A DNA stretch of 64,000 nucleotides, from the sequence record EU863408. One strand, given 5' to 3'. A program made the translations under genes and the position numbers. The notes under the pieces were generated by a model. That model ran no database searches. It was not told the origin of the DNA and saw only the letters and a list, made by a program, of their open reading frames with translations. This stretch comes from Escherichia phage JSE. Shown piece after piece: positions 6,341-61,017 of the stretch. Position 1 is the stretch's first letter, and every line of letters starts with the position of its first letter.

Positions 6341-6390
6341 GTATTAATATTGTGCACATGTAAACTAAAATTATGTTAATAACAGATAAC

Positions 6391-13452: not shown

Positions 13453-14223
13453 ATGAATATTATCCGAATAAAACTGCCGGAAGGTGTGCAGAGATTTAAA
13501 CCATTCACGGTAAAAGATTATAGAGATTTCCTTCTGGTGTCAACTGAAATTAAGATGAATCCAGAAGAAGAACAAACGATTCTGGATGAGCTATTAGAAG
13601 AAATATATCCAGAAGTAGATCCGGCATTTCGTGAATATATTTTCCTGAATGTCTTTACTAGCTCAATTGGTAAAACAAAGATACCGCTTTGTTTTACTTG
13701 CCCGACTTGCAACAAAGAAAGAAAAATGTTGCTTAACTTACAGGTTGAAGCACTAAAACCAATCGTTCTAGAGGCCGCAGGGCTTAAAATAACTTTCCGG
13801 TATGTTAAACCATCAACCGACTATGCAAAAACGTTTCTGGATGCGATAGAGCGTGTATCTGATGGTATTAATGATTATCTATGGACTGAATTACCGGAAG
13901 AAGTTAGAGAACAGGTTATCGATTCAATCTCATTTGCTGAATTTGAAGAAGTTGTTAAGCAGATGCACACAATCAAGATCGAACAAAAGATATCTTGTTG
14001 TGAAAGTCATGACCTGAAATACATAGGTCTTCTTCCATTATTCAAATTGTTGTTGAATCCAGATGAGTTATTCATCTTTTATCGAATAAACCATCTATTG
14101 GCAAAATCAAATTATTCTATCAGTGATCTTATGGATATGTTACCGATTGAGAGAAACATTGCACTGACACTGGTCGAGAAAGACGTAAAAGAGGCAAATA
14201 ATGCAAAGAACGGGGTTTCCTAA
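13453..14223 (+). CDS. 51: baseplate hub assembly catalyst gp51
   Basis: 256 aa, T4 order 26-51-27; TATAAATA late promoter at 13425-13432. Confidence 0.85.
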   Translation: MNIIRIKLPEGVQRFKPFTVKDYRDFLLVSTEIKMNPEEEQTILDELLEEIYPEVDPAFREYIFLNVFTSSIGKTKIPLCFTCPTCNKERKMLLNLQVEALKPIVLEAAGLKITFRYVKPSTDYAKTFLDAIERVSDGINDYLWTELPEEVREQVIDSISFAEFEEVVKQMHTIKIEQKISCCESHDLKYIGLLPLFKLLLNPDELFIFYRINHLLAKSNYSISDLMDMLPIERNIALTLVEKDVKEANNAKNGVS

Positions 14224-15311
14224 TGTCTCAATAAAACTTTATCAGGATTATGAGGCATTTCTAAATCATCGCTTTATAGAGTTGGGTGCTACCTTTGTTA
14301 CAATGACTCTGCGTGATTCGATTCGTGGGGTGAATGAAGGATTGTTGCAATTCTATGATAATAAGGCGATGCATACAAAATTAAACGGGAGAGAGATCAT
14401 TCAGATTTCGCTATCCACTGCTAATACAGATGAAGTGTTTAACCGAATCTATGGGATCTCTCATAGTAATGTAACAATTGACCAAAAATCCGACAACATT
14501 TTAACATTCCAGTTAAAGAGCTATCACGAAACACTAAACCTTAAATTTTCTCGCTCATTGACAAATAACGCGGTTAATAACGTAACTAGCATGATTGATG
14601 CCATCTATAAGGAAGTTCCTTTATGGAAACCTACTATAAAGGGTGATAACGTTGTTATTCCTCGTTGTCCGTGGGTTAGTACCATAAATGACTATATGGA
14701 TTTTGTTAGGGCATACGGGCAAAGCGTAGAAACCGAGTCTTTCGTGTATTGCTGGGAAGATTTTGATGGTATAACGATTGCTGGATACGATACAATATTA
14801 AAAAATGAGCCAATACCAGCTATAATCTGTGAGCCTAGACTCATGGGGCAATTTATTGATATGTCGCCTAATCTGATGGTTTTTAATTTTGAGTGGCAGA
14901 CTAAGAGCAATGCTAAAGTTAAAAAATTCATTTAGCAATGTGACATACACCACTATTGATTTTGTTACTAAGCAGTATAATAAAATTATTGTTGGTAATG
15001 GGGATAATATTGCACACTTTGCTCATGGTGGCGCTTATGGCGATTTAACTTATAAGAATGCGTTTTTGGAAGGTTCTAAACTTGCCACAATAGAACAATA
15101 TGATTCATATGCTACCGCCGTGTGTCACGGTAATTTTTCGTTGCGCCCCGGTATGGTTATTCGATTCTTTGATGAGAAGCAACAAGCACGCAATGATTTT
15201 ATTGTTGACGAAGTGGTGCATGAAATTAGCCGAGAGCAATCATTAACTCACCTGTATATGATCGGTAACAGCGAAGAATTACAGGAAGTCAAATTTGAAG
15301 GTAAGATATAA
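14201..15311 (+). CDS. 27: baseplate hub subunit gp27, split by a frameshift at an A6 tract (14921-14926)
   Basis: Track ORFs 14201..14935 and 14889..15311 are the N- and C-terminal parts of T4 gp27; removing one A makes a single reading frame. Confidence 0.8.
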
Positions 15312-25750: not shown

Positions 25751-26062
25751 TTAGCGACGGCGACGATGTTTTTTGCGAGTTGCCTTTTTGTATGCTTTAT
25801 ATGCCTTTTTACCGTTTTTATATGCTTTTTTGGTATATGATTGATTTTTCTTATTGTTTTTGTATGTTTCCCGGTCAGTATTAATTTCGTTACATTCCAC
25901 GAAACGGTGTCGATGTTCTTGTGGTATGATCAAACATTTATCATAATTAACCATTTCGTTTTTCGTTGTTTGTGGTTTCTTTGGTGTGTTGTTTGCACTA
26001 ACAGACCCAGCAAAGAGAATGAGTATAGCGGTCATTAACGCAAACATTGTTTTCTTAATCAT
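25751..26062 (-). CDS. secreted small basic protein
   Basis: N-terminal signal peptide; lysine/arginine-rich C-terminus. Confidence 0.5.
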   Translation of the reverse strand: MIKKTMFALMTAILILFAGSVSANNTPKKPQTTKNEMVNYDKCLIIPQEHRHRFVECNEINTDRETYKNNKKNQSYTKKAYKNGKKAYKAYKKATRKKHRRRR

Positions 26063-26120
26063 AATATTCTCCTTTAGTTTCTGCGGGAGTGTGAATATAA
26101 CACTCCCTTAATATTTTGTA

Positions 26121-26402
26121 TTATTCGTGATTAGTTTCGATGTTGTGCATTTTGCACCAGTTCAGCCAATCGCCCAGATCTTGATAGTTAATGCTTTTAT
26201 CTGCTGCCATCGTTTTTGTCTTGATACCCATATGTGCGTTATGAGTAAGCATTTTTACAGTGAACTCGATTTTATCGCCTTTAGCTTTAACATCAACCAG
26301 TTTGGTCCACTGGCTACCAGCACCGCGAATGTTCATACCAACGATGTTTCCGATGTATGCTTCTTTGTTTTTCAGGATTTCGGTTGCTTTGATGAATTTC
26401 AT
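26121..26402 (-). CDS. hypothetical protein
   Basis: 93 aa ORF with promoter cassette at 26436-26464. Confidence 0.5.
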   Translation of the reverse strand: MKFIKATEILKNKEAYIGNIVGMNIRGAGSQWTKLVDVKAKGDKIEFTVKMLTHNAHMGIKTKTMAADKSINYQDLGDWLNWCKMHNIETNHE

Positions 26403-26435
26403 TTTTGATTCTCCAGTTCGTTTCGGTATGGGTGT

Positions 26436-26464
26436 ATTATGCTATGTTCTTACTTTGGTGTCAA
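26436..26464 (-). promoter_or_regulatory. early promoter (TTGACA-N17-CATAAT)
   Basis: Cassette without palindromic spacer. Confidence 0.5.
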
Positions 26465-26473
26465 CAACTTTTT

Positions 26474-26743
26474 TTAGATATTTTCAGAAATAAATTTTAA
26501 AACTTGACGTAAATGTTTCTCATCTTTGATGGTAGCCGGAAGTTCTTCTTTTACTTCCTGTGCAAGATAGATATTTCCGTTCCAAGTGAAAGATCCGTCT
26601 TCGTTTACTCGATAGCTGAACATCCACTCGCAATCATTTTCGATTTCATATACACACAGAAGGGTGTAATCGTTAAAGCTATTGATTTCAAGGTCGAAGC
26701 CGTGACGTTTTGCAAAGTTGGTAGTGGTTTTAGTCAGTACCAT
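26474..26743 (-). CDS. hypothetical protein
   Basis: 89 aa ORF with promoter cassette at 26784-26812. Confidence 0.5.
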   Translation of the reverse strand: MVLTKTTTNFAKRHGFDLEINSFNDYTLLCVYEIENDCEWMFSYRVNEDGSFTWNGNIYLAQEVKEELPATIKDEKHLRQVLKFISENI

Positions 26744-26783
26744 TGTTTGATTCTCCTAAGTGGTATCTCGTCTTGATGGGTGT

Positions 26784-26812
26784 ATTATGCTATACACAGG
26801 ATCTGGTGTCAA
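26784..26812 (-). promoter_or_regulatory. early promoter (TTGACA-N17-CATAAT)
   Basis: Same cassette family. Confidence 0.5.
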
Positions 26813-26835
26813 TGCCTTTTTTAAAATTTTATGCA

Positions 26836-26862
26836 ATAAAAAAGCCGACGCTAAGGTCGGCT
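26836..26862 (-). terminator. rho-independent terminator
   Basis: AGCCGACC-TTAG-CGTCGGCT then T7 on minus strand. Confidence 0.6.
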
Positions 26863-26869
26863 AATAAAA

Positions 26870-27177
26870 TCATTTAGACAAATAATCATTCAGTGCAATC
26901 CGGTCGGCGTATGCTGGTGTTACGTCAATCGCAATCACTTTAACGCGTGCTTTCTTGCGACCTGGGTTTTCTCGTAACCAGTGCTCATGACCGTGAACAT
27001 TTTATACTGCGATGCTTCTTCGAAAGTACGGATCGGACAAGGGTAATCAGCGTAAAGGATCTCTAGGTCTTCGGTGATGTAAAAATATACATCATAATTA
27101 CTGTTCTCTAGTTTAAGCAGAGACTTTCGGAACATTGGGAGATTTTCGCGGGTAAATTCAAAGATATTATCTTTCAT
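26870..27177 (-). pseudogene. HxHW-family small protein, frameshifted at an A4/T4 tract (26997-27000)
   Basis: Track ORF 26935..27177 carries the family N-terminus (YFYITEDLEI); the C-terminal HGHEHW...VIAIDVTPAYAD lies in another frame. Confidence 0.4.
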
Positions 27178-27227
27178 AGTATTATCCTCAATAGTTGGAT
27201 GAAAAGGGGGGCTTAATGCCCCGTATA

Positions 27228-27515
27228 TTAAAACAGTCCTTCCTGTACACCGTAGTAGAGTTCATCGCTGATAATTTCATTAATGCGACGGTGTGCATAT
27301 TCCTGATTTGCGAAGTTGTCAGCAAGTTCTACTTTAGTTTCGCCATCATGAGTCCATTTAGTGATAACTTTACCATCGGCAAATTTGAAGTTGAACTCTT
27401 TAGCTACCGCATCGCGTACCAGACGTGCAAACTTATTGTTGCGGATTGCATTGTCGGTTTCGTGTGCAGCGTGAGCGAATTTGTTAACTTTCAGAGTGAT
27501 AGTAATGTATGCCAT
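27228..27515 (-). CDS. hypothetical protein
   Basis: 95 aa; possible paralog of 30649..30960 (shared AKEFN segment). Confidence 0.5.
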   Translation of the reverse strand: MAYITITLKVNKFAHAAHETDNAIRNNKFARLVRDAVAKEFNFKFADGKVITKWTHDGETKVELADNFANQEYAHRRINEIISDELYYGVQEGLF

Positions 27516-27561
27516 AATTTGATTCTCCTAGTTAGAAAGTGTATCTCGTTTCGACGGGTGT

Positions 27562-27590
27562 ATTATGCTATACACCCGATCCATTGTCAA
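27562..27590 (-). promoter_or_regulatory. early promoter (TTGACA-N17-CATAAT)
   Basis: GGGTGTAT/ATACACCC palindrome around the -10. Confidence 0.5.
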
Positions 27591-27922
27591 CGCCTTTTTA
27601 TAAAATAATTTTCGATATCTTTATGATGTTTTTCTCGTGCTTGGTCTGCCTCGGCTGGCGATACGTTGGAAGCGATAATCTTCACTACTGTTGCACCTTT
27701 TTCGGTGTCCGACACCCAATGATTATGGAAACCGCTATTATTAAACACTTGATAAGAAAATGATTTAATGTTAGGGAAATTATAAGTGTAATAACGTACC
27801 CTTAATTCTGAATCTACGTATAGATAGATCACCGCACCTAGATAGACCGTCTCACTCGTTCCGTCAACTAACAGTAGAGTATTTCGCAATTCTTCTAAAT
27901 TGTCTTTTGTAAGAAAAATCAT
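27587..27922 (-). CDS. HxHW-family small protein
   Basis: YLYVDSEL ... HNHW ... IASNVSPAEAD. Confidence 0.55.
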   Translation of the reverse strand: MIFLTKDNLEELRNTLLLVDGTSETVYLGAVIYLYVDSELRVRYYTYNFPNIKSFSYQVFNNSGFHNHWVSDTEKGATVVKIIASNVSPAEADQAREKHHKDIENYFIKRR

Positions 27923-27936
27923 AGTATAATCCTCAA

Positions 27937-28272
27937 TTAAACCAAATTAACTTTGGTGTTGTGGTGGTTTTCTCGTGCGTCGTCCGCTTCTTCCGGTGTC
28001 ACGTTACGAGCGACGACAATAACACTTGCTGCCTCTCCGTGATGATAGATCTCTACCCAATGGTTATGATTTGCGAATCCGTGTTTTATTGCGTAAGCGA
28101 ACGGCTTAGACGTCCAGTAGTAACTATAATATCGTACATTTAGATCGCTATCAATGTACAAATATGTGCTGTCGTTTACATTGCCACTAACAACAAAAAC
28201 AAGACAATTGCGAAGATCTGACAATATTTTGTCTGTCAATTTTATAATGTGACTGTTCATAATTAACACCAC
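27937..28272 (-). CDS. HxHW-family small protein
   Basis: YLYIDSDL ... HNHW ... VARNVTPEEAD; tandem with 27587..27922. Confidence 0.55.
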   Translation of the reverse strand: MVLIMNSHIIKLTDKILSDLRNCLVFVVSGNVNDSTYLYIDSDLNVRYYSYYWTSKPFAYAIKHGFANHNHWVEIYHHGEAASVIVVARNVTPEEADDARENHHNTKVNLV

Positions 28273-29229: not shown

Positions 29230-29524
29230 TTATAATGCTTTATATGCGTATTTCATAAATTTGTCTGCCACTTCATTGGCATGTTCAGATTCTACGCCTG
29301 ATTCGAGAACAATAGCTAGGTCGGTTTCGTCATTCCCGCCGTACCAATGATTTGATGTTCGATTTTTTTCAATTGGAAATTGGTCACTTTTATCTGTGCG
29401 ACAAAATACATCTAAATGCTCATCGATGTAAAAGATCCAATCTTCATAAAGAATAACGGGTATTAGCAAGATTTTTATTGCCTTCAACGAAAGGTTCGGC
29501 TACAAACAAATTAGTATGTTCCAT
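29230..29524 (-). pseudogene. HxHW-family small protein, frameshifted at an A5/T5 tract (29472-29476)
   Basis: ATG at 29524 with TATAAT and GAGG upstream reads 26 codons then stops; the family body (IFYIDEHL ... SNHW ...) continues in the +1 frame. Confidence 0.4.
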
Positions 29525-37162: not shown

Positions 37163-38347
37163 TTACCAATCAATCTTATCAGCCGGAATCAGTTTCTTAT
37201 AATTCCGTAGATAGTAAGTTTTCATTGAAGCCAGAATACGGTCATAATCAAGACCATCAAATGCAATCATCAGACACATGAAAATATATGATTGTGCATC
37301 ACCATGTTTACGTGATTCGATAGTCGCATTGGATGCATATGTCTTTCTGTCTTCTCCCGCGTGTGCGTTATAAAATTCTGTTGCTGTCGTAAAGGCATTG
37401 CGAAGAATGGACCTGAATGCTTCCTCGAATAGCTCAATTCGTTCCAGTGCTTCCGGTTCGCCTTCATATGCAGCACGCAAATCATCGGTTTCGCTTTCTA
37501 CGACATAGTAGATCAGGTTATTAGGAAACATCGATGTGTTTTTAATGTTATGCACACCAATATACCATTCACTCTTCACCTTGAACATTTGACCGTCTTT
37601 AGTGCGTGCAACAATTCCTTCGATACCTTCTGCGGTCCGAACTTCATCAAGAATATTGCTAAAACGCGCTGAATCAACCTGTAACGCATTTACCAGATGA
37701 GGACGTAGGATTGCGTCAGCAAATAGCATTTGATGCGGTACGTACTCTCCTGTGACGTTATGGCGTACATTCAGAAGTGTTAGCGACGGTTCAGAATATT
37801 CTACAACAATTCGGTTGCTGGGTGCTGTATATTCAAAGTTGAAAGTATAATCAGACCCAATATCGGCGATCTTAGCGCGTAGATCCGCATACTTCTCTGA
37901 ATACAGAAGACCGTTTGCTCTCTCTGCCTGGCTTGAGTACAAGGCCGCTTTAGACTTCAACTGAACATAGCCGTTATCAATGTATGTGCTTACTAGACTA
38001 CCGTCCATTTTGTCCATGACCATTTCCACATCTTCCGGCTTAAAGCGAGCGCGATCATTCTCACCCAAATTAAAAAACTTCTCCATAGGACGAGATGCAA
38101 TGCGGACAGGTCGGTCTTTATCATCGATTTCAAACATGATCCCGCGACACTCTAACGCATCTGGTTTATTCCACATTTCCGGTTTGCTCAAGTACAGATA
38201 ACTAAAAATGCGCATACGGGTTTGCATCGCCGTAATTTCATCTTTGTAATAGAACGTATCAGATCCGTCACATAGTGCCATCAGATTTTTGAACAATGCT
38301 AAAACTTTTTTTGTTGTTTTCTTTTGTTGACATAATTTGTGTTCCAT
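37163..38347 (-). CDS. rnlA: RNA ligase 1
   Basis: Colinear with T4 Rnl1 (PDALECRGIMFE, RIASRPMEKFFNL). Confidence 0.9.
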   Translation of the reverse strand: MEHKLCQQKKTTKKVLALFKNLMALCDGSDTFYYKDEITAMQTRMRIFSYLYLSKPEMWNKPDALECRGIMFEIDDKDRPVRIASRPMEKFFNLGENDRARFKPEDVEMVMDKMDGSLVSTYIDNGYVQLKSKAALYSSQAERANGLLYSEKYADLRAKIADIGSDYTFNFEYTAPSNRIVVEYSEPSLTLLNVRHNVTGEYVPHQMLFADAILRPHLVNALQVDSARFSNILDEVRTAEGIEGIVARTKDGQMFKVKSEWYIGVHNIKNTSMFPNNLIYYVVESETDDLRAAYEGEPEALERIELFEEAFRSILRNAFTTATEFYNAHAGEDRKTYASNATIESRKHGDAQSYIFMCLMIAFDGLDYDRILASMKTYYLRNYKKLIPADKIDW

Positions 38348-38730
38348 TCTGGTTTAAATTTGGTGATCAAAACAGGTTCTTCGATATCGGCAGTGCTTAT
38401 AATATCTTTACCCGTTGGATTCTCGATGTACAACTCAAAGCATTGGCGGTAATAGAATGTTACTGTCTTACCTTCCTCTAGCGCCTTATGAATATTCTTA
38501 CTCTTGCGAGTATCCGCTGTTGGTGTTTGTCTGTTAATGCTCGTCCGGTAATAATTGATCCGCTTTCTGAGATTAACAGTCTGACCAATGTATACCAGTT
38601 CATCATCAACCACAATAGCGTAAAGAACATTTAAACGGTTTTTCTGAGGCGGTAGAATCACATCACCATCTTTACACTCTAAACATGAATATTTAACGAA
38701 TCCATAGTTTTCTATTAGCTCATTAATCAT
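38299..38730 (-). CDS. GIY-YIG nuclease domain protein
   Basis: VLYAIVVDDELVYIGQTVNLRKRINYY matches the GIY-YIG core; only 143 aa. Confidence 0.55.
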   Translation of the reverse strand: MINELIENYGFVKYSCLECKDGDVILPPQKNRLNVLYAIVVDDELVYIGQTVNLRKRINYYRTSINRQTPTADTRKSKNIHKALEEGKTVTFYYRQCFELYIENPTGKDIISTADIEEPVLITKFKPEWNTNYVNKRKQQKKF

Positions 38731-47277: not shown

Positions 47278-47305
47278 ATTATACATTACCACATAAGCAT
47301 GTCAA
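47278..47305 (-). promoter_or_regulatory. early promoter (TTGACA-N16-TATAAT)
   Basis: Precedes ORF 46917..47246. Confidence 0.5.
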
Positions 47306-47332
47306 CACCTTTTTCATAAATTTTTAGGCAAT

Positions 47333-47360
47333 AAAAAAGCCTCCCCGAAGGAAGGCTTTA
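47333..47360 (-). terminator. terminator after gene 32
   Basis: AGCCTTCC-TTCG-GGGAGGCT hairpin then T-run on minus strand. Confidence 0.6.
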
Positions 47361-47367
47361 AAATTCA

Positions 47368-48342
47368 TTACATCCCTAACAGAGCGTCAAGATCATCCAG
47401 ATCAGAAGCGGAGGAAGTACCGCCACCCAGATCCAGCGATGCCATCAGGTCATCAGCGGAAGAATCTAACGCCGTGCTAGCTGCGTTAATACCAACTACA
47501 GTGCTAGCTGCGTTAATACCAGCATCGAATGCATTCATCTGTGCGTCAAAATCGTCAAGCTGGCTGTTAATCGCTGCCGCAGCACTGGAAGCCGCAGCAC
47601 CAGCTACCATAGAAACGCCCATAGTTTTCTTAAATTTGGTTTCCAGTTCATCGAACGGTTTAAACTGGCTAGGCGCTACAATCTCACTCAGGTCAACCAT
47701 GTTTTCCATCAGATATTTCTGATATGCTTCGTCTTCAATTTTCGGAAGCTGTGATTGCTGCATGAAACGAGAATCATCATAGTTCTGGTGTTTATCAACC
47801 TTCTTAGCTTTCAGGAGGAAGTTAGCACCGGAGAACACACAAGTTACATCTACCGGAACTTCGCCCATATCGGTATTCACGTTCACCATTGCAACGATCT
47901 TATCATAAATTTTCTGACCGAAGCGGAATTTGAATACCTTACCTTCATTTTCTGGTGCTTGAGGATCTTTCAGTACCAGAATATTTGCGTAGTAAGAGGC
48001 TTTACGCTTAATCAGTTGCCATTCGGTTTTATCGGTATTGTACAGATCTTTTTCGTTAATATATTTGCACACAGGGCAAGAATCAAAATCACCGTGGGTG
48101 CTGGAGCAGTTTTCCCAATACCATTTGCCATTAACTTTGAAGGAATGGTTTACCAGTTTCACAATCGGCAGACCGTCTTCTGTCTTAGACGGCAGGAAGC
48201 GAATCAGGGCTTCACCGTTACCTGCTGCATCAGTCTTAATCTTCCACTCTTTCGGATCTTCTTTGGAGAAACCGTTGCCACCTTTCAGTGCGGCCAGTTG
48301 AGCTTGCAGTTTGGAAGAATCTTGGCGTTTAAACATATTCAC
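47368..48342 (-). CDS. 32: single-stranded DNA-binding protein gp32
   Basis: Colinear with T4 gp32 (AVIRFLPSK, NEGKVFK.RFG.KI.DKI); Ser/Asp-rich acidic tail. Confidence 0.95.
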
Positions 48343-58107: not shown

Positions 58108-61017
58108 ATGGCAGATTTAAACAGAATCCAATTTAAACGTACTAGCACGAAAGGTCGTAAACCTGATGCTACTACAATGACGCAAGGTGAACTTGCTATC
58201 AACCTGCATGATTATTATTTGTTTACAAAAAATGACTCTGGTTCTATTATTAACTTAAGCTGTCCTCCGATCTATGACCGCGATGTTATCATGGCTGGTA
58301 AAGTAAAGGGAGATTATTACATTTTAGGTAAAACCGCCAATTATCTTGAAGATCAGACAGCGAGAGACCTTAACCGTTTTGGAGCATTCCGTACCAACGG
58401 TCTAGATGGATTTTTAGATTTGACCTTGCATGTTCCTCATTCTGCTGGCGTTCAACATGGTCGAGGATTTACTTTCCGTTATGCGACTGGCGGATCTCGT
58501 GTTGAAACATATGGGTATAATGCACAGGGACAAAAAGCATTTAGCTATAAAATGTATCATGAAGGTGATAAACCAACTCCAGGAGAACTGAACGTTTATA
58601 GCAAACAAGAAGTAGATAGAATGTTTGTTAAAAACGTTAAACTTTCTACAGGTTCTGGTGATATCGTTGACGGTTATTTTAAATTAGCGACTGCGATGAT
58701 TCCACAAGACGGTCGTAGTGTATTTTTCCGTATTCATGGTGGTAACGGATATAACATTACTGCATACGATCAAGTTGATATTGTAGAAATTGTTATTCGC
58801 AGTGGAAATAATCGTCCTAAAGGTGTTAACGTTATTGCATACCGCCGAAATACAAACAAAGCATTTGATGTTTTGGCTGTTAATACTTCTGGTGATAACT
58901 ATGATATCTACGTGAAATATCAGCGTTACACTGATAACGTTATTGTTGAATTTGGTAAAAGTGTTGATGTTAATCTGGTAGTCCATGACGTTCCAGACTT
59001 TGTTGTTGATCGTCCTGTTGGCGATAATGTTATTGGCGGTCGCGCGGTAACTCTTTTCAACACCGAAAACAAACGAGGTGTGTTGAGTTTTGACGACAAT
59101 ACACAAAACAGCTATGATATTGTTCACATGAGTAATGATAAAGGTACTGGACGAAAATATATTCGTAAATTCCGTAGTAACTATAATGAAATGATCTGGC
59201 ATGAGACGGTTCAAGGTAACGTATATCGTTTAGCTACTGGAACTACCGACGCAAACGAAGTTCTCAAAATTACCGACCGCACGTTGCAAACTGGCAATGC
59301 TGTTTTTGACGGTGGTAATAATAATGTTCGTTTACATCGTAAAACCGGAAAAAGTAACTATCTGGAATATTATGATGCCCGTGACGGAGCAAATAAACGT
59401 CAGGGATATATTGGGTATGGCGATGCCACAACTAACCAGTTGTCAATTATTAACGAACTCTCCGAAGGTAATAACTCGATTTTCTTTAACGAGACAGGTC
59501 AAATTTCACTTAACGTAGGAAAGACAAAAATTGTTCATAGCAACGGACAATATATTTCTACCAACGCCGATAACTATCGTATAATTTATGGTAATTATGG
59601 AACATTCTGGCGAAATGATAGCGTTAAACTTTATCTCATGTCCACTGCCGAAAATGATAAATGGGGTACTTGGAATAGCTATCGACCATTCATTTACAAC
59701 CTAACCAGCGGCGATGTTCAATTGGGTGGTGATGGTAACGAATCGGCATTAACGTTAGAATGTGCTTCTCGTGCCGCTCGCTTTAGTAATGACGTTTACA
59801 TTAAGAAAGGGCTTTTGACTTTCGACGCTGGGCGATTAGGATCTCGCGATTATATTAGATTTAATCATTGGGGCGATAGCAATAACGGTCGCGATAACAT
59901 CCTACAGATTGAAGACAGTCAGGGCGCACATTTTACCACTGAACGTGCTATGGGTACTGGTAACATAACAGCACGTTTTAAAGGCTTTGTTCGTGTTGAG
60001 TCTGGTGAGATTGCATTTGATGCTAATCGGGGGTCGCAGTCTCAATTTACCTTACACACATGGGGTAACGAGCAACGCAAACAGGTTTTTGAATGTAAGG
60101 ATGCTACAAGTTATCACTGGTATACTGAACGTACTCAGGGTGGCACTGGACCTATTCTGTTCGTTATGGCGGGTAGTCTAAACGTTGGTAGCAATATCAC
60201 AACAACTGGTCCGGATATTACGTTTAAACGCGCTGGCAATAAGCACATCTGGTTTAGAGATCCAAACGGCTTAGAGTTAGGCTTGATGTACTGCGATGAT
60301 GCTGGTGCTATTCGCTTCCGTGGTCAGAAACAAGCCCAGGCGTGGAAATTTGCAGATAAAATGATCCAGTTGGAATCTGGCACTGTATCCGGTGGCGGTA
60401 ATGGCCTGATTCGTGGTGAAGTTGCTGGCGGTAGTTGGGCTAGCTGGCGTGACCGTGCTGCTGGCCTTATGGTTGGGTGTCCTCAATCAACCAATTCCGC
60501 TCATAACATCTGGAAAGCTACTCATTGGGGTCAATATCACATTGCAGCAATGGGTGTACATGTTCCTAACGGTACTATCGGTGATGCTATAGCTCGCCTA
60601 AACGTTCATGACGCCAACTTTGACTTTAGCGCCTCCGGTGACATGTCGGCAGGGCGTAACGGTTCGTTTAACGATGTTTATATTCGTTCTGATGCTCGCC
60701 TTAAAATCAATAAGGAAGAGTATAAGGAGAATGCCACTGATAAAGTTAATCGCTTGACTGTGTACACCTACGATAAGGTTAAATCTTTAACTGACCGTAG
60801 TGTTATCGCCCATGAAGTTGGTATTATTGCTCAGGATCTTGAGAAAGAATTGCCGGAAGCAGTAACAACTTCTAAGGTCGGCGACCCAGATAAACCAGAA
60901 GAGATCTTAACAATTTCTAACTCTGCTGTCAACGCTCTTTTAATTAAGGCGTTTCAGGAAATGAGCGAAGAATTGAAAGCCGTTAAAGCTGAACTAGCGG
61001 AACTTAAAAAGAATTAA
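58108..61017 (+). CDS. 37: long tail fibre distal subunit gp37 with C-terminal intramolecular chaperone (peptidase S74-like) domain
   Basis: N-terminus MADLNRIQFKRTS ... GELAINL matches T4 gp37; C-terminus SDARLK...GIIAQDLEKELPEAV...coiled coil matches the endosialidase-type chaperone domain. Confidence 0.85.
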   Translation: MADLNRIQFKRTSTKGRKPDATTMTQGELAINLHDYYLFTKNDSGSIINLSCPPIYDRDVIMAGKVKGDYYILGKTANYLEDQTARDLNRFGAFRTNGLDGFLDLTLHVPHSAGVQHGRGFTFRYATGGSRVETYGYNAQGQKAFSYKMYHEGDKPTPGELNVYSKQEVDRMFVKNVKLSTGSGDIVDGYFKLATAMIPQDGRSVFFRIHGGNGYNITAYDQVDIVEIVIRSGNNRPKGVNVIAYRRNTNKAFDVLAVNTSGDNYDIYVKYQRYTDNVIVEFGKSVDVNLVVHDVPDFVVDRPVGDNVIGGRAVTLFNTENKRGVLSFDDNTQNSYDIVHMSNDKGTGRKYIRKFRSNYNEMIWHETVQGNVYRLATGTTDANEVLKITDRTLQTGNAVFDGGNNNVRLHRKTGKSNYLEYYDARDGANKRQGYIGYGDATTNQLSIINELSEGNNSIFFNETGQISLNVGKTKIVHSNGQYISTNADNYRIIYGNYGTFWRNDSVKLYLMSTAENDKWGTWNSYRPFIYNLTSGDVQLGGDGNESALTLECASRAARFSNDVYIKKGLLTFDAGRLGSRDYIRFNHWGDSNNGRDNILQIEDSQGAHFTTERAMGTGNITARFKGFVRVESGEIAFDANRGSQSQFTLHTWGNEQRKQVFECKDATSYHWYTERTQGGTGPILFVMAGSLNVGSNITTTGPDITFKRAGNKHIWFRDPNGLELGLMYCDDAGAIRFRGQKQAQAWKFADKMIQLESGTVSGGGNGLIRGEVAGGSWASWRDRAAGLMVGCPQSTNSAHNIWKATHWGQYHIAAMGVHVPNGTIGDAIARLNVHDANFDFSASGDMSAGRNGSFNDVYIRSDARLKINKEEYKENATDKVNRLTVYTYDKVKSLTDRSVIAHEVGIIAQDLEKELPEAVTTSKVGDPDKPEEILTISNSAVNALLIKAFQEMSEELKAVKAELAELKKN

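What the first reader, a model, noticed from the sequence alone, without database searches (positions are those of the whole stretch)
14889..14935. Baseplate hub gene 27 is split by a frameshift at an A6 homopolymer
The gp27 homolog is encoded as two overlapping ORFs, 14201..14935 and 14889..15311. The reading frames diverge at the A6 run at 14921-14926; deleting one A gives a continuous protein (...WQTKSNAKVKNSFSNVTYTT...) of about 370 aa, colinear with T4 gp27. gp27 is essential, so this is either a homopolymer sequencing error, a very recent inactivating mutation, or low-level slippage is needed to express it.
Basis: seen in the sequence. Interest (0 to 1): 0.5.

Follow-up and report, generated by a model that had tools for sequence, protein, structure and literature searches.

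The report
Likely sequencing-error frameshift in phage gp27
The split baseplate hub gene is really in this sequence (phage JSE), but it is almost certainly a one-base homopolymer error in the deposited genome, so it is ordinary.

Summary
The window comes from Escherichia phage JSE, an RB49-like Krischvirus. Gene 27 is written as two overlapping ORFs, 14201-14935 and 14889/14910-15311, which diverge at an A6 run at 14921-14926. GenBank already lists them as two "gp27" proteins.

Deleting one A gives a 369-aa protein. It is colinear with T4 gp27 and identical to an intact protein found on 7 other public contigs.

All 50 full-length relative records are exactly one base shorter. All 13 relatives read directly have A5. 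The split products occur only in the JSE record.

Two more +1 homopolymer insertions unique to JSE break or alter other conserved ORFs in the same window: G2->G3 at 29458-29460 and T6->T7 at 38306-38312.

The site has no recoding features. The run is short, the required shift is +1 with no pause codon, the downstream RNA structure is not significant, and no relative conserves a shift site.

The break falls inside the second beta-barrel domain of gp27, so a working two-piece protein is unlikely. JSE is a propagated, plaque-forming phage, and gp27 is a required hub protein.

Best explanation: a homopolymer-length error in the record (about 0.87). Interest is low.

The parts
14201..15311 (+). Gene 27 (baseplate hub subunit gp27) as a whole. 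It is 1111 nt here and 1110 nt in all relatives.
   Evidence: 50 full-length records each span 1110 nt. RB49 gp27 residues 1-241 and 239-369 match in two frames. Pfam PF09097 and PF09096, and colinearity with T4 gp27 1K28_D.
14201..14935 (+). ORF1: gp27 residues 1-241, then 3 out-of-frame residues (KFI) and TAG. It equals GenBank ACL78132.1 (244 aa) of phage JSE.
   Evidence: exact match, found on one contig only, the 166,418-bp JSE record.
14921..14926 (+). A6 homopolymer. It is A5 in every relative examined, and the extra A causes the frame change.
   Evidence: sequence. (alignment with ELT4, RB49, G2248). A5 in 10 further metagenome or genome loci, two of which read GTC AAA AAC TCG.
14910..15311 (+). 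ORF2 in the +1 frame: the C-terminal 128 residues of gp27 behind 5 unrelated residues when started at ATG 14910. This is GenBank ACL78133.1 (133 aa). The mechanical ORF starts at TTG 14889.
   Evidence: it matches only profile positions 45-164 of PF09096.
29458..29460 (-). Supporting evidence: G3 (G2 in all relatives) shifts the frame near the N-terminus of the RB49p206 homologue.
   Evidence: insertion against ELT4 and RB49. (HSPs 1-22 and 17-97 in different frames). (all 37 matching records are one base shorter over the aligned span)..
38306..38312 (-). Supporting evidence: T7 (T6 in all relatives) changes the last ~10 codons of denA, giving 143 aa here against 153 aa in RB49.
   Evidence: (denA HSP 1-143, then a frame change). 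(all 57 records span 140 nt against 141)..

Best explanation
The window is part of the deposited genome of Escherichia phage JSE, an RB49-like Krischvirus. The real phage most likely has an ordinary, continuous 369-codon gene 27 with an A5 run. The sixth A at 14921-14926 is a homopolymer-length error made during sequencing, base-calling or assembly. It splits the gene on paper into the two 'gp27' CDSs already annotated in GenBank. Shown: the extra base, its uniqueness, the intact repaired protein elsewhere, other singleton homopolymer insertions in the same record, and the absence of recoding signals. Inferred: that the error lies in the record rather than in the phage, because no reads or re-sequencing data could be consulted.
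For: (1) Identity: the 244-aa and 133-aa products are exactly ACL78132.1 and ACL78133.1 of phage JSE, and each occurs on a single contig of the 15-billion-protein collection.
(2) Singleton: 50 full-length records of relatives at 95-99.5% identity all span 1110 nt against 1111 here. Direct reading shows A5 in ELT4, RB49, G2248 and 10 further loci.
(3) The repaired 369-aa protein is present, exact and intact, on 7 other contigs. The only JSE-private substitution downstream of the shift is synonymous in the restored frame. Two divergent relatives carry synonymous changes across the junction, GTC AAA AAC TCG. The continuous frame is therefore the one under selection, and the downstream part has not decayed.
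(4) The same record has two more JSE-only +1 homopolymer insertions that disturb conserved ORFs: G2->G3 at 29458, against 37 of 37 relatives, and T6->T7 at 38306, against 57 of 57. Of about 90 RB49 genes that have a close homologue in the window, these three are the only ones that change frame.
(5) JSE is an isolated phage propagated on E. coli K802 (PMC2993671). [quoted passage not shown]
(6) No recoding context. The run is only 6 nt. The window holds 48 A/T runs of 6 or more. The RNA downstream does not fold better than shuffles (z=-1.2).
Against: No raw reads, no second JSE assembly and no account of the sequencing platform could be obtained. The original paper is not held, the JSE record is not in the phage collection, and the nearest other contigs are only 98.65% identical or less. 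Natural indels also prefer homopolymers, so the position alone does not discriminate. Only three broken frames in 64 kb is a low error rate, so each taken alone could in principle be real.
Confidence: 0.87

Rival explanations
1. The A6 was really present in the DNA that was sequenced but does not represent the viable phage. It could be a defective variant in the lysate, or a mutation acquired in a cloned shotgun fragment, that entered the consensus. That would be a template artefact or a very recent inactivating mutation.
For: The sequence evidence is the same as for a base-calling error: the change is a singleton and the downstream codons have not decayed. Single-base gains in A-runs are a common class of spontaneous mutation (general knowledge).
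Against: A lethal allele cannot be the majority in a propagating lysate. It would also have to have happened three times at homopolymers in 64 kb, which fits a systematic technical cause better.
Confidence: 0.06
2. JSE really carries A6, and full-length gp27 is made by rare recoding. Either Lys-tRNA slips +1 on AAA-A, giving the wild-type ...VKNSF... sequence, or RNA polymerase drops one A. Only three gp27 copies are needed per virion.
For: A +1 re-pairing of tRNA-Lys from AAA (14921-23) to AAA (14922-24) would restore exactly the ancestral protein (read from the sequence). The gp27 requirement is low because it forms one trimer per particle (PMC3004832).
Against: The required shift is +1, yet the next zero-frame codon is a common AAA rather than a stop or a rare codon. 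There is no significant downstream structure. Six A is below the length at which E. coli RNA polymerase slips appreciably (established knowledge, not tested here). No relative conserves a shifted arrangement. The same window has 21 A6 and 21 T6 runs, many of which must lie in coding DNA, so efficient slippage at this length would damage many genes.
Confidence: 0.04
3. JSE really carries A6 and gp27 works as two polypeptides. ORF1 supplies residues 1-241. ORF2 is started at ATG 14910, for example by re-initiation of ribosomes that terminate at TAG 14933.
For: An in-frame ATG lies 23 nt upstream of the ORF1 stop and is preceded by AAGAG. GenBank annotates both pieces as gp27.
Against: The break lies inside Pfam domain PF09096, at profile position about 41-45 of 173. 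In T4 numbering it falls at about residue 244, just after the first segment (207-239) of the second beta-barrel, whose remainder is 307-368 (PMC3004832; alignment). One barrel would therefore have to form from two chains. The ATG and AAGAG are identical in relatives with intact genes, so they are not an adaptation, and the AAGAG-ATG spacing of 2 nt is poor. No other of 141 cluster members shows the split.
Confidence: 0.03

Closest known systems
gp27 of Escherichia phage RB49 (NP_891748.1) and other Krischvirus phages (ELT4, G2248, Phi1 and others)
   Same: Same gene in the same 25-26-51-27-28-29-48-54 neighbourhood, at 95-99.5% nucleotide identity. The repaired protein differs from ELT4 gp27 at one residue and from RB49 gp27 at four.
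   Different: They have A5 and one continuous 369-codon ORF. This record has A6 and two ORFs.
T4 gp27 baseplate hub protein (PDB 1K28 chain D; also 9F4A 'putative baseplate hub subunit')
   Same: Colinear over about 363 residues (E=1.6e-98 and 4.6e-110), with both Pfam gp27 domains.
   Different: T4 gp27 is 391 aa and is a more distant sequence relative. Nothing comparable to a split is known for it.
Programmed recoding sites of E. coli and its phages (prfB +1 frameshift, dnaX -1 frameshift, transcriptional slippage on long A/T runs)
   Same: A run of A at the point where two overlapping frames would have to be joined.
   Different: There is no conservation in relatives, no pause codon, no well-placed internal Shine-Dalgarno sequence, no significant structure, and the run is only 6 nt. 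The comparison with these systems rests on established knowledge, not on a test here.
Homopolymer-length errors in deposited phage genomes
   Same: A single-base length change in a homopolymer, a singleton against all relatives, several such cases in one record, and an essential gene apparently broken in a viable phage.
   Different: The sequencing platform and the reads for JSE could not be checked here.

Membership tests
T4-type gp27 baseplate hub subunit | Both gp27 Pfam domains (PF09097 Phage-tail_1 and PF09096 Phage-tail_2) above the gathering score | tested here: met
   repaired protein scores 187.7 and 133.1 bits (cut-offs 27 and 25). In the record as written, PF09096 is cut into profile positions 2-41 (ORF1, 24.3 bits, below cut-off) and 45-164 (ORF2).
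T4-type gp27 baseplate hub subunit | End-to-end colinearity with solved T4 gp27 | tested here: met
   residues 1-363 align with 4-367 of 1K28_D, E=1.6e-98.
T4-type gp27 baseplate hub subunit | Position in the hub gene cluster (25, 26, 51, 27, 28, 29, 48, 54) | tested here: met
   with the annotations.
T4-type gp27 baseplate hub subunit | One continuous open reading frame | tested here: not met
   the frame is broken at A6. It is met after removal of one A and in all relatives.
Programmed frameshift / transcriptional slippage site | The shifted two-ORF arrangement is conserved in related genomes | tested here: not met
   every relative has a single ORF with A5; the split products are unique to JSE.
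Programmed frameshift / transcriptional slippage site | Stimulatory element: a pause or stop codon for a +1 shift, or a stable downstream structure | tested here: not met
   the codon after the slip site is AAA; the fold of 14915-15010 gives -15.8 kcal/mol, z=-1.21, and 25 of 200 shuffles fold as well.
Programmed frameshift / transcriptional slippage site | Homopolymer long enough for RNA polymerase slippage (about 8-9 or more A/T) | tested here: not met
   the run is 6 A. The length threshold comes from established knowledge and was not measured here.
Homopolymer sequencing/assembly error | Single-base length change in a homopolymer, private to one record among close relatives | tested here: met
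Homopolymer sequencing/assembly error | Further private homopolymer-length changes in the same record that disturb conserved ORFs | tested here: met
   sites at 29458-29460 and 38306-38312.
Homopolymer sequencing/assembly error | Raw reads or independent re-sequencing show the shorter run | not testable with these tools
   No reads are available. The JSE record and its paper are not held. No contig more than 98.65% identical was found.

The most novel reading that the evidence does not exclude
Phage JSE genuinely carries A6 in gene 27 and still builds baseplates. It would do so either by rare +1 slippage of tRNA-Lys or RNA polymerase on the A-run, or by assembling the hub protein from two separately translated fragments that together complete the second beta-barrel domain.
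Probability: 0.06. Interest if true: 0.55.

Novelty: not a real feature. Interest (0 to 1): 0.07.

Why it matters
The practical consequence is for curation. The JSE reference record (NC_012740 / EU863408) carries two partial "gp27 baseplate hub" proteins, ACL78132.1 and ACL78133.1, also held in RefSeq and UniProt. They should be merged into one 369-aa protein or flagged. At least two other genes in the record, the denA 3' end and the RB49p206 homologue, probably carry the same kind of error. Pipelines that use JSE as a reference will inherit truncated hub proteins. If the frameshift were real against expectation, it would be a rare case of an essential virion protein expressed through a non-programmed +1 slip or as a split beta-barrel. 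Nothing here points that way.

Tried and rejected
- **Exact look-up of JSE gp29:** nothing was on record.
- **Exact look-up of JSE gp51:** it gave 10 loci. All have an intact 369-aa gp27 and A5, but none is JSE itself, the best being 98.65% identical. No independent re-sequencing of JSE was found.
- **JSE record and paper:** NC_012740 is not in the phage collection. The original JSE paper (Virology 2009, doi 10.1016/j.virol.2009.03.009) is not held. Searches for the accession numbers or for "pyrosequencing" gave no statement of the platform. My recollection that the work dates from the 454 era is therefore not used as evidence.
- **First broken-ORF screen:** a screen with stop-to-stop ORFs mostly flagged spurious antisense ORFs and missed gp27. 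It was replaced by tblastn of the annotated RB49 proteins.
- **First "differs from all relatives" script:** it missed the gp27 site because two divergent relatives place the gap one column away. This was resolved by reading the alignments directly.
- **Raw gap list:** many single-base gaps against ELT4 and RB49 are compensating pairs in divergent stretches or lie in intergenic DNA, and were not counted as errors.
- **A second gp27 copy:** only one locus matches in this 64-kb window. The rest of the genome was not available.
- **Structure prediction:** not run, because the published T4 domain boundaries and the Pfam coordinates already place the break inside a domain.

Full report
**The observation**

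The sequence at 14910-14939 reads atg cta aag tta aaa aat tca ttt agc in one frame and gct aaa gtt AAA AAA ttc att TAG in the other. The six A lie at 14921-14926.

The ORF listing gives ORF1 at 14201-14935 (244 aa...WQTKSNAKVKKFI*). It gives ORF2 at 14889-15311 (140 aa from TTG, with an in-frame ATG at 14910). ORF2 is in the +1 frame relative to ORF1.

Removing one A gives a 1110-nt ORF of 369 codons (...AKVKNSFSNVTYTT...).

**What the gene is**

- The repaired protein carries both gp27 Pfam domains, PF09097 at residues 2-195 and PF09096 at 200-362.
- It aligns end to end with solved T4 gp27: residues 1-363 against 4-367 of 1K28_D, E=1.6e-98. It also matches the hub subunit of entry 9F4A.
- The neighbouring genes are 25, 26, 51, then 27, 28, 29, 48, 54.

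**Where the window comes from**

The two ORF products are exact matches to ACL78132.1 (244 aa) and ACL78133.1 (133 aa). Both are named "gp27 baseplate hub subunit [Escherichia phage JSE]", and each occurs on one contig of 166,418 bp. The window is therefore part of phage JSE, an RB49-like Krischvirus, and the split is already on record as two CDSs.

JSE is a phage isolated and grown on E. coli K-12 K802, and its 166,418-bp genome is NC_012740 (PMC2993671).

**Comparison with relatives**

- Megablast of the 1111-nt gene finds 53 phage records at 95-99.5% identity. All 50 that cover the gene end to end span exactly 1110 nt.
- Alignment with ELT4, RB49 and G2248 places the single gap in the A-run, A5 against A6.
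- Ten further loci from metagenomes, SRA assemblies and one genome encode a gp51 identical to JSE's. All of them have an intact 369-aa gp27 and A5.
- Two of these loci read GTC AAA AAC TCG TTT AAC. These are mostly synonymous changes in the continuous frame, which shows that this frame is the one under selection across the junction.
- The exact repaired JSE protein is present on 7 other contigs.
- JSE has only two private substitutions in the gene. Both are synonymous in the restored frame, including the one downstream of the shift.
- The downstream part therefore shows no decay. The split form is unique to this record among 141 cluster members.

**Is this the only such case in the record?**

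I ran tblastn of the annotated RB49 proteins of the region against the window. About 90 have a close homologue there, and the frame changes in only three.

- gp27.
- The RB49p206 homologue, where G2->G3 at 29458-29460.
- The 3' end of denA, where T6->T7 at 38306-38312. This gives 143 aa here against 153 aa in RB49.

For both extra sites every matching record is one base shorter: 37 of 37 and 57 of 57.

In the 20 kb around gene 27, the only other single-base indels private to JSE are two intergenic insertions at 6388 and 6397.

Three private +1 insertions, all in homopolymers and all disturbing conserved ORFs, are what a systematic length-calling error produces. They are not what purifying selection would leave in a viable phage.

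**Could it be biological?**

- **Recoding.** Restoring the frame needs a +1 shift. tRNA-Lys could re-pair from AAA (14921-23) to AAA (14922-24) and give the wild-type sequence. However, the next codon is a common AAA rather than a stop or rare codon. The downstream 96 nt do not fold better than shuffles (z=-1.21). Six A is short for polymerase slippage (established knowledge). The window holds 48 A/T runs of 6 or more, and no relative has a shifted arrangement.
- **A two-piece gp27.** The break lies inside PF09096, at profile position about 41-45 of 173. In T4 numbering it is at about residue 244. That is right after the first segment (207-239) of the second tube-like beta-barrel, whose remainder is 307-368 (PMC3004832). 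One barrel would have to assemble from two chains. The candidate restart ATG 14910 and its weak, badly spaced AAGAG are identical in relatives with intact genes, so they are not adaptations.
- **A fixed inactivating mutation.** This cannot be reconciled with a propagating phage. The gp5-gp27 complex is the central hub, and tail assembly stops where a product is missing (PMC3004832).

**Verdict**

The sequence feature is real in the record, but the biological feature is most probably not real. The A6 is best explained as a homopolymer-length error in the deposited JSE genome (confidence about 0.87). The rest is divided between a template-level artefact or defective variant (0.06), rare +1 slippage (0.04) and a functional split protein (0.03).

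What I could not do is look at reads, at a second JSE assembly, or at the original methods. A simple amplicon re-sequencing would settle it.

Noticed in passing
window 38306-38312 (- strand gene denA, 38299-38730): T7 here against T6 in all 57 matching phage records. The change replaces the last ~10 codons of endonuclease II (DenA), giving 143 aa instead of 153. It is probably a second homopolymer error in the JSE record.
   Followed up: partly
window 29458-29460 (- strand, homologue of RB49p206, about 29230-29524): G3 here against G2 in all 37 matching records. The first ~20 codons of a conserved 97-aa hypothetical protein are in a different frame from the rest. It is probably a third homopolymer error.
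   Followed up: partly
window 6388 and 6397 (intergenic, between the RB49p164 and p165 homologues): Two single-base insertions 9 nt apart (+A, +C next to an A6 run) are private to JSE against 10 of 10 relatives. They could be real or errors.
   Followed up: no
L018 801-1583 (Enterobacteria phage GEC-3S, HE978309.1 106899-107681): In this relative's record gene 27 is only 783 nt. An in-frame 327-nt deletion removes residues 15-123, essentially the whole first beta-barrel tube domain of gp27, in a phage described as a viable therapeutic candidate. It is either an assembly artefact or a surprising natural deletion.
   Followed up: partly
window 25752-28260 and 47285-47370, compared with RB49 L006/L007: Several small RB49 ORFs (p189.1, p192, p195, p196, p226, p231, p232) and the 485-aa endonuclease p240 have no counterpart in the window. 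The p197-p202 region is only 29-54% identical. This is ordinary accessory-gene and homing-endonuclease flux between Krischvirus genomes.
   Followed up: no
window 58108-61014 (gp37 homologue, distal long tail fibre): It is only 72% identical to RB49 gp37, while the flanking genes are 95-98% identical. This is the usual host-range hypervariability.
   Followed up: no
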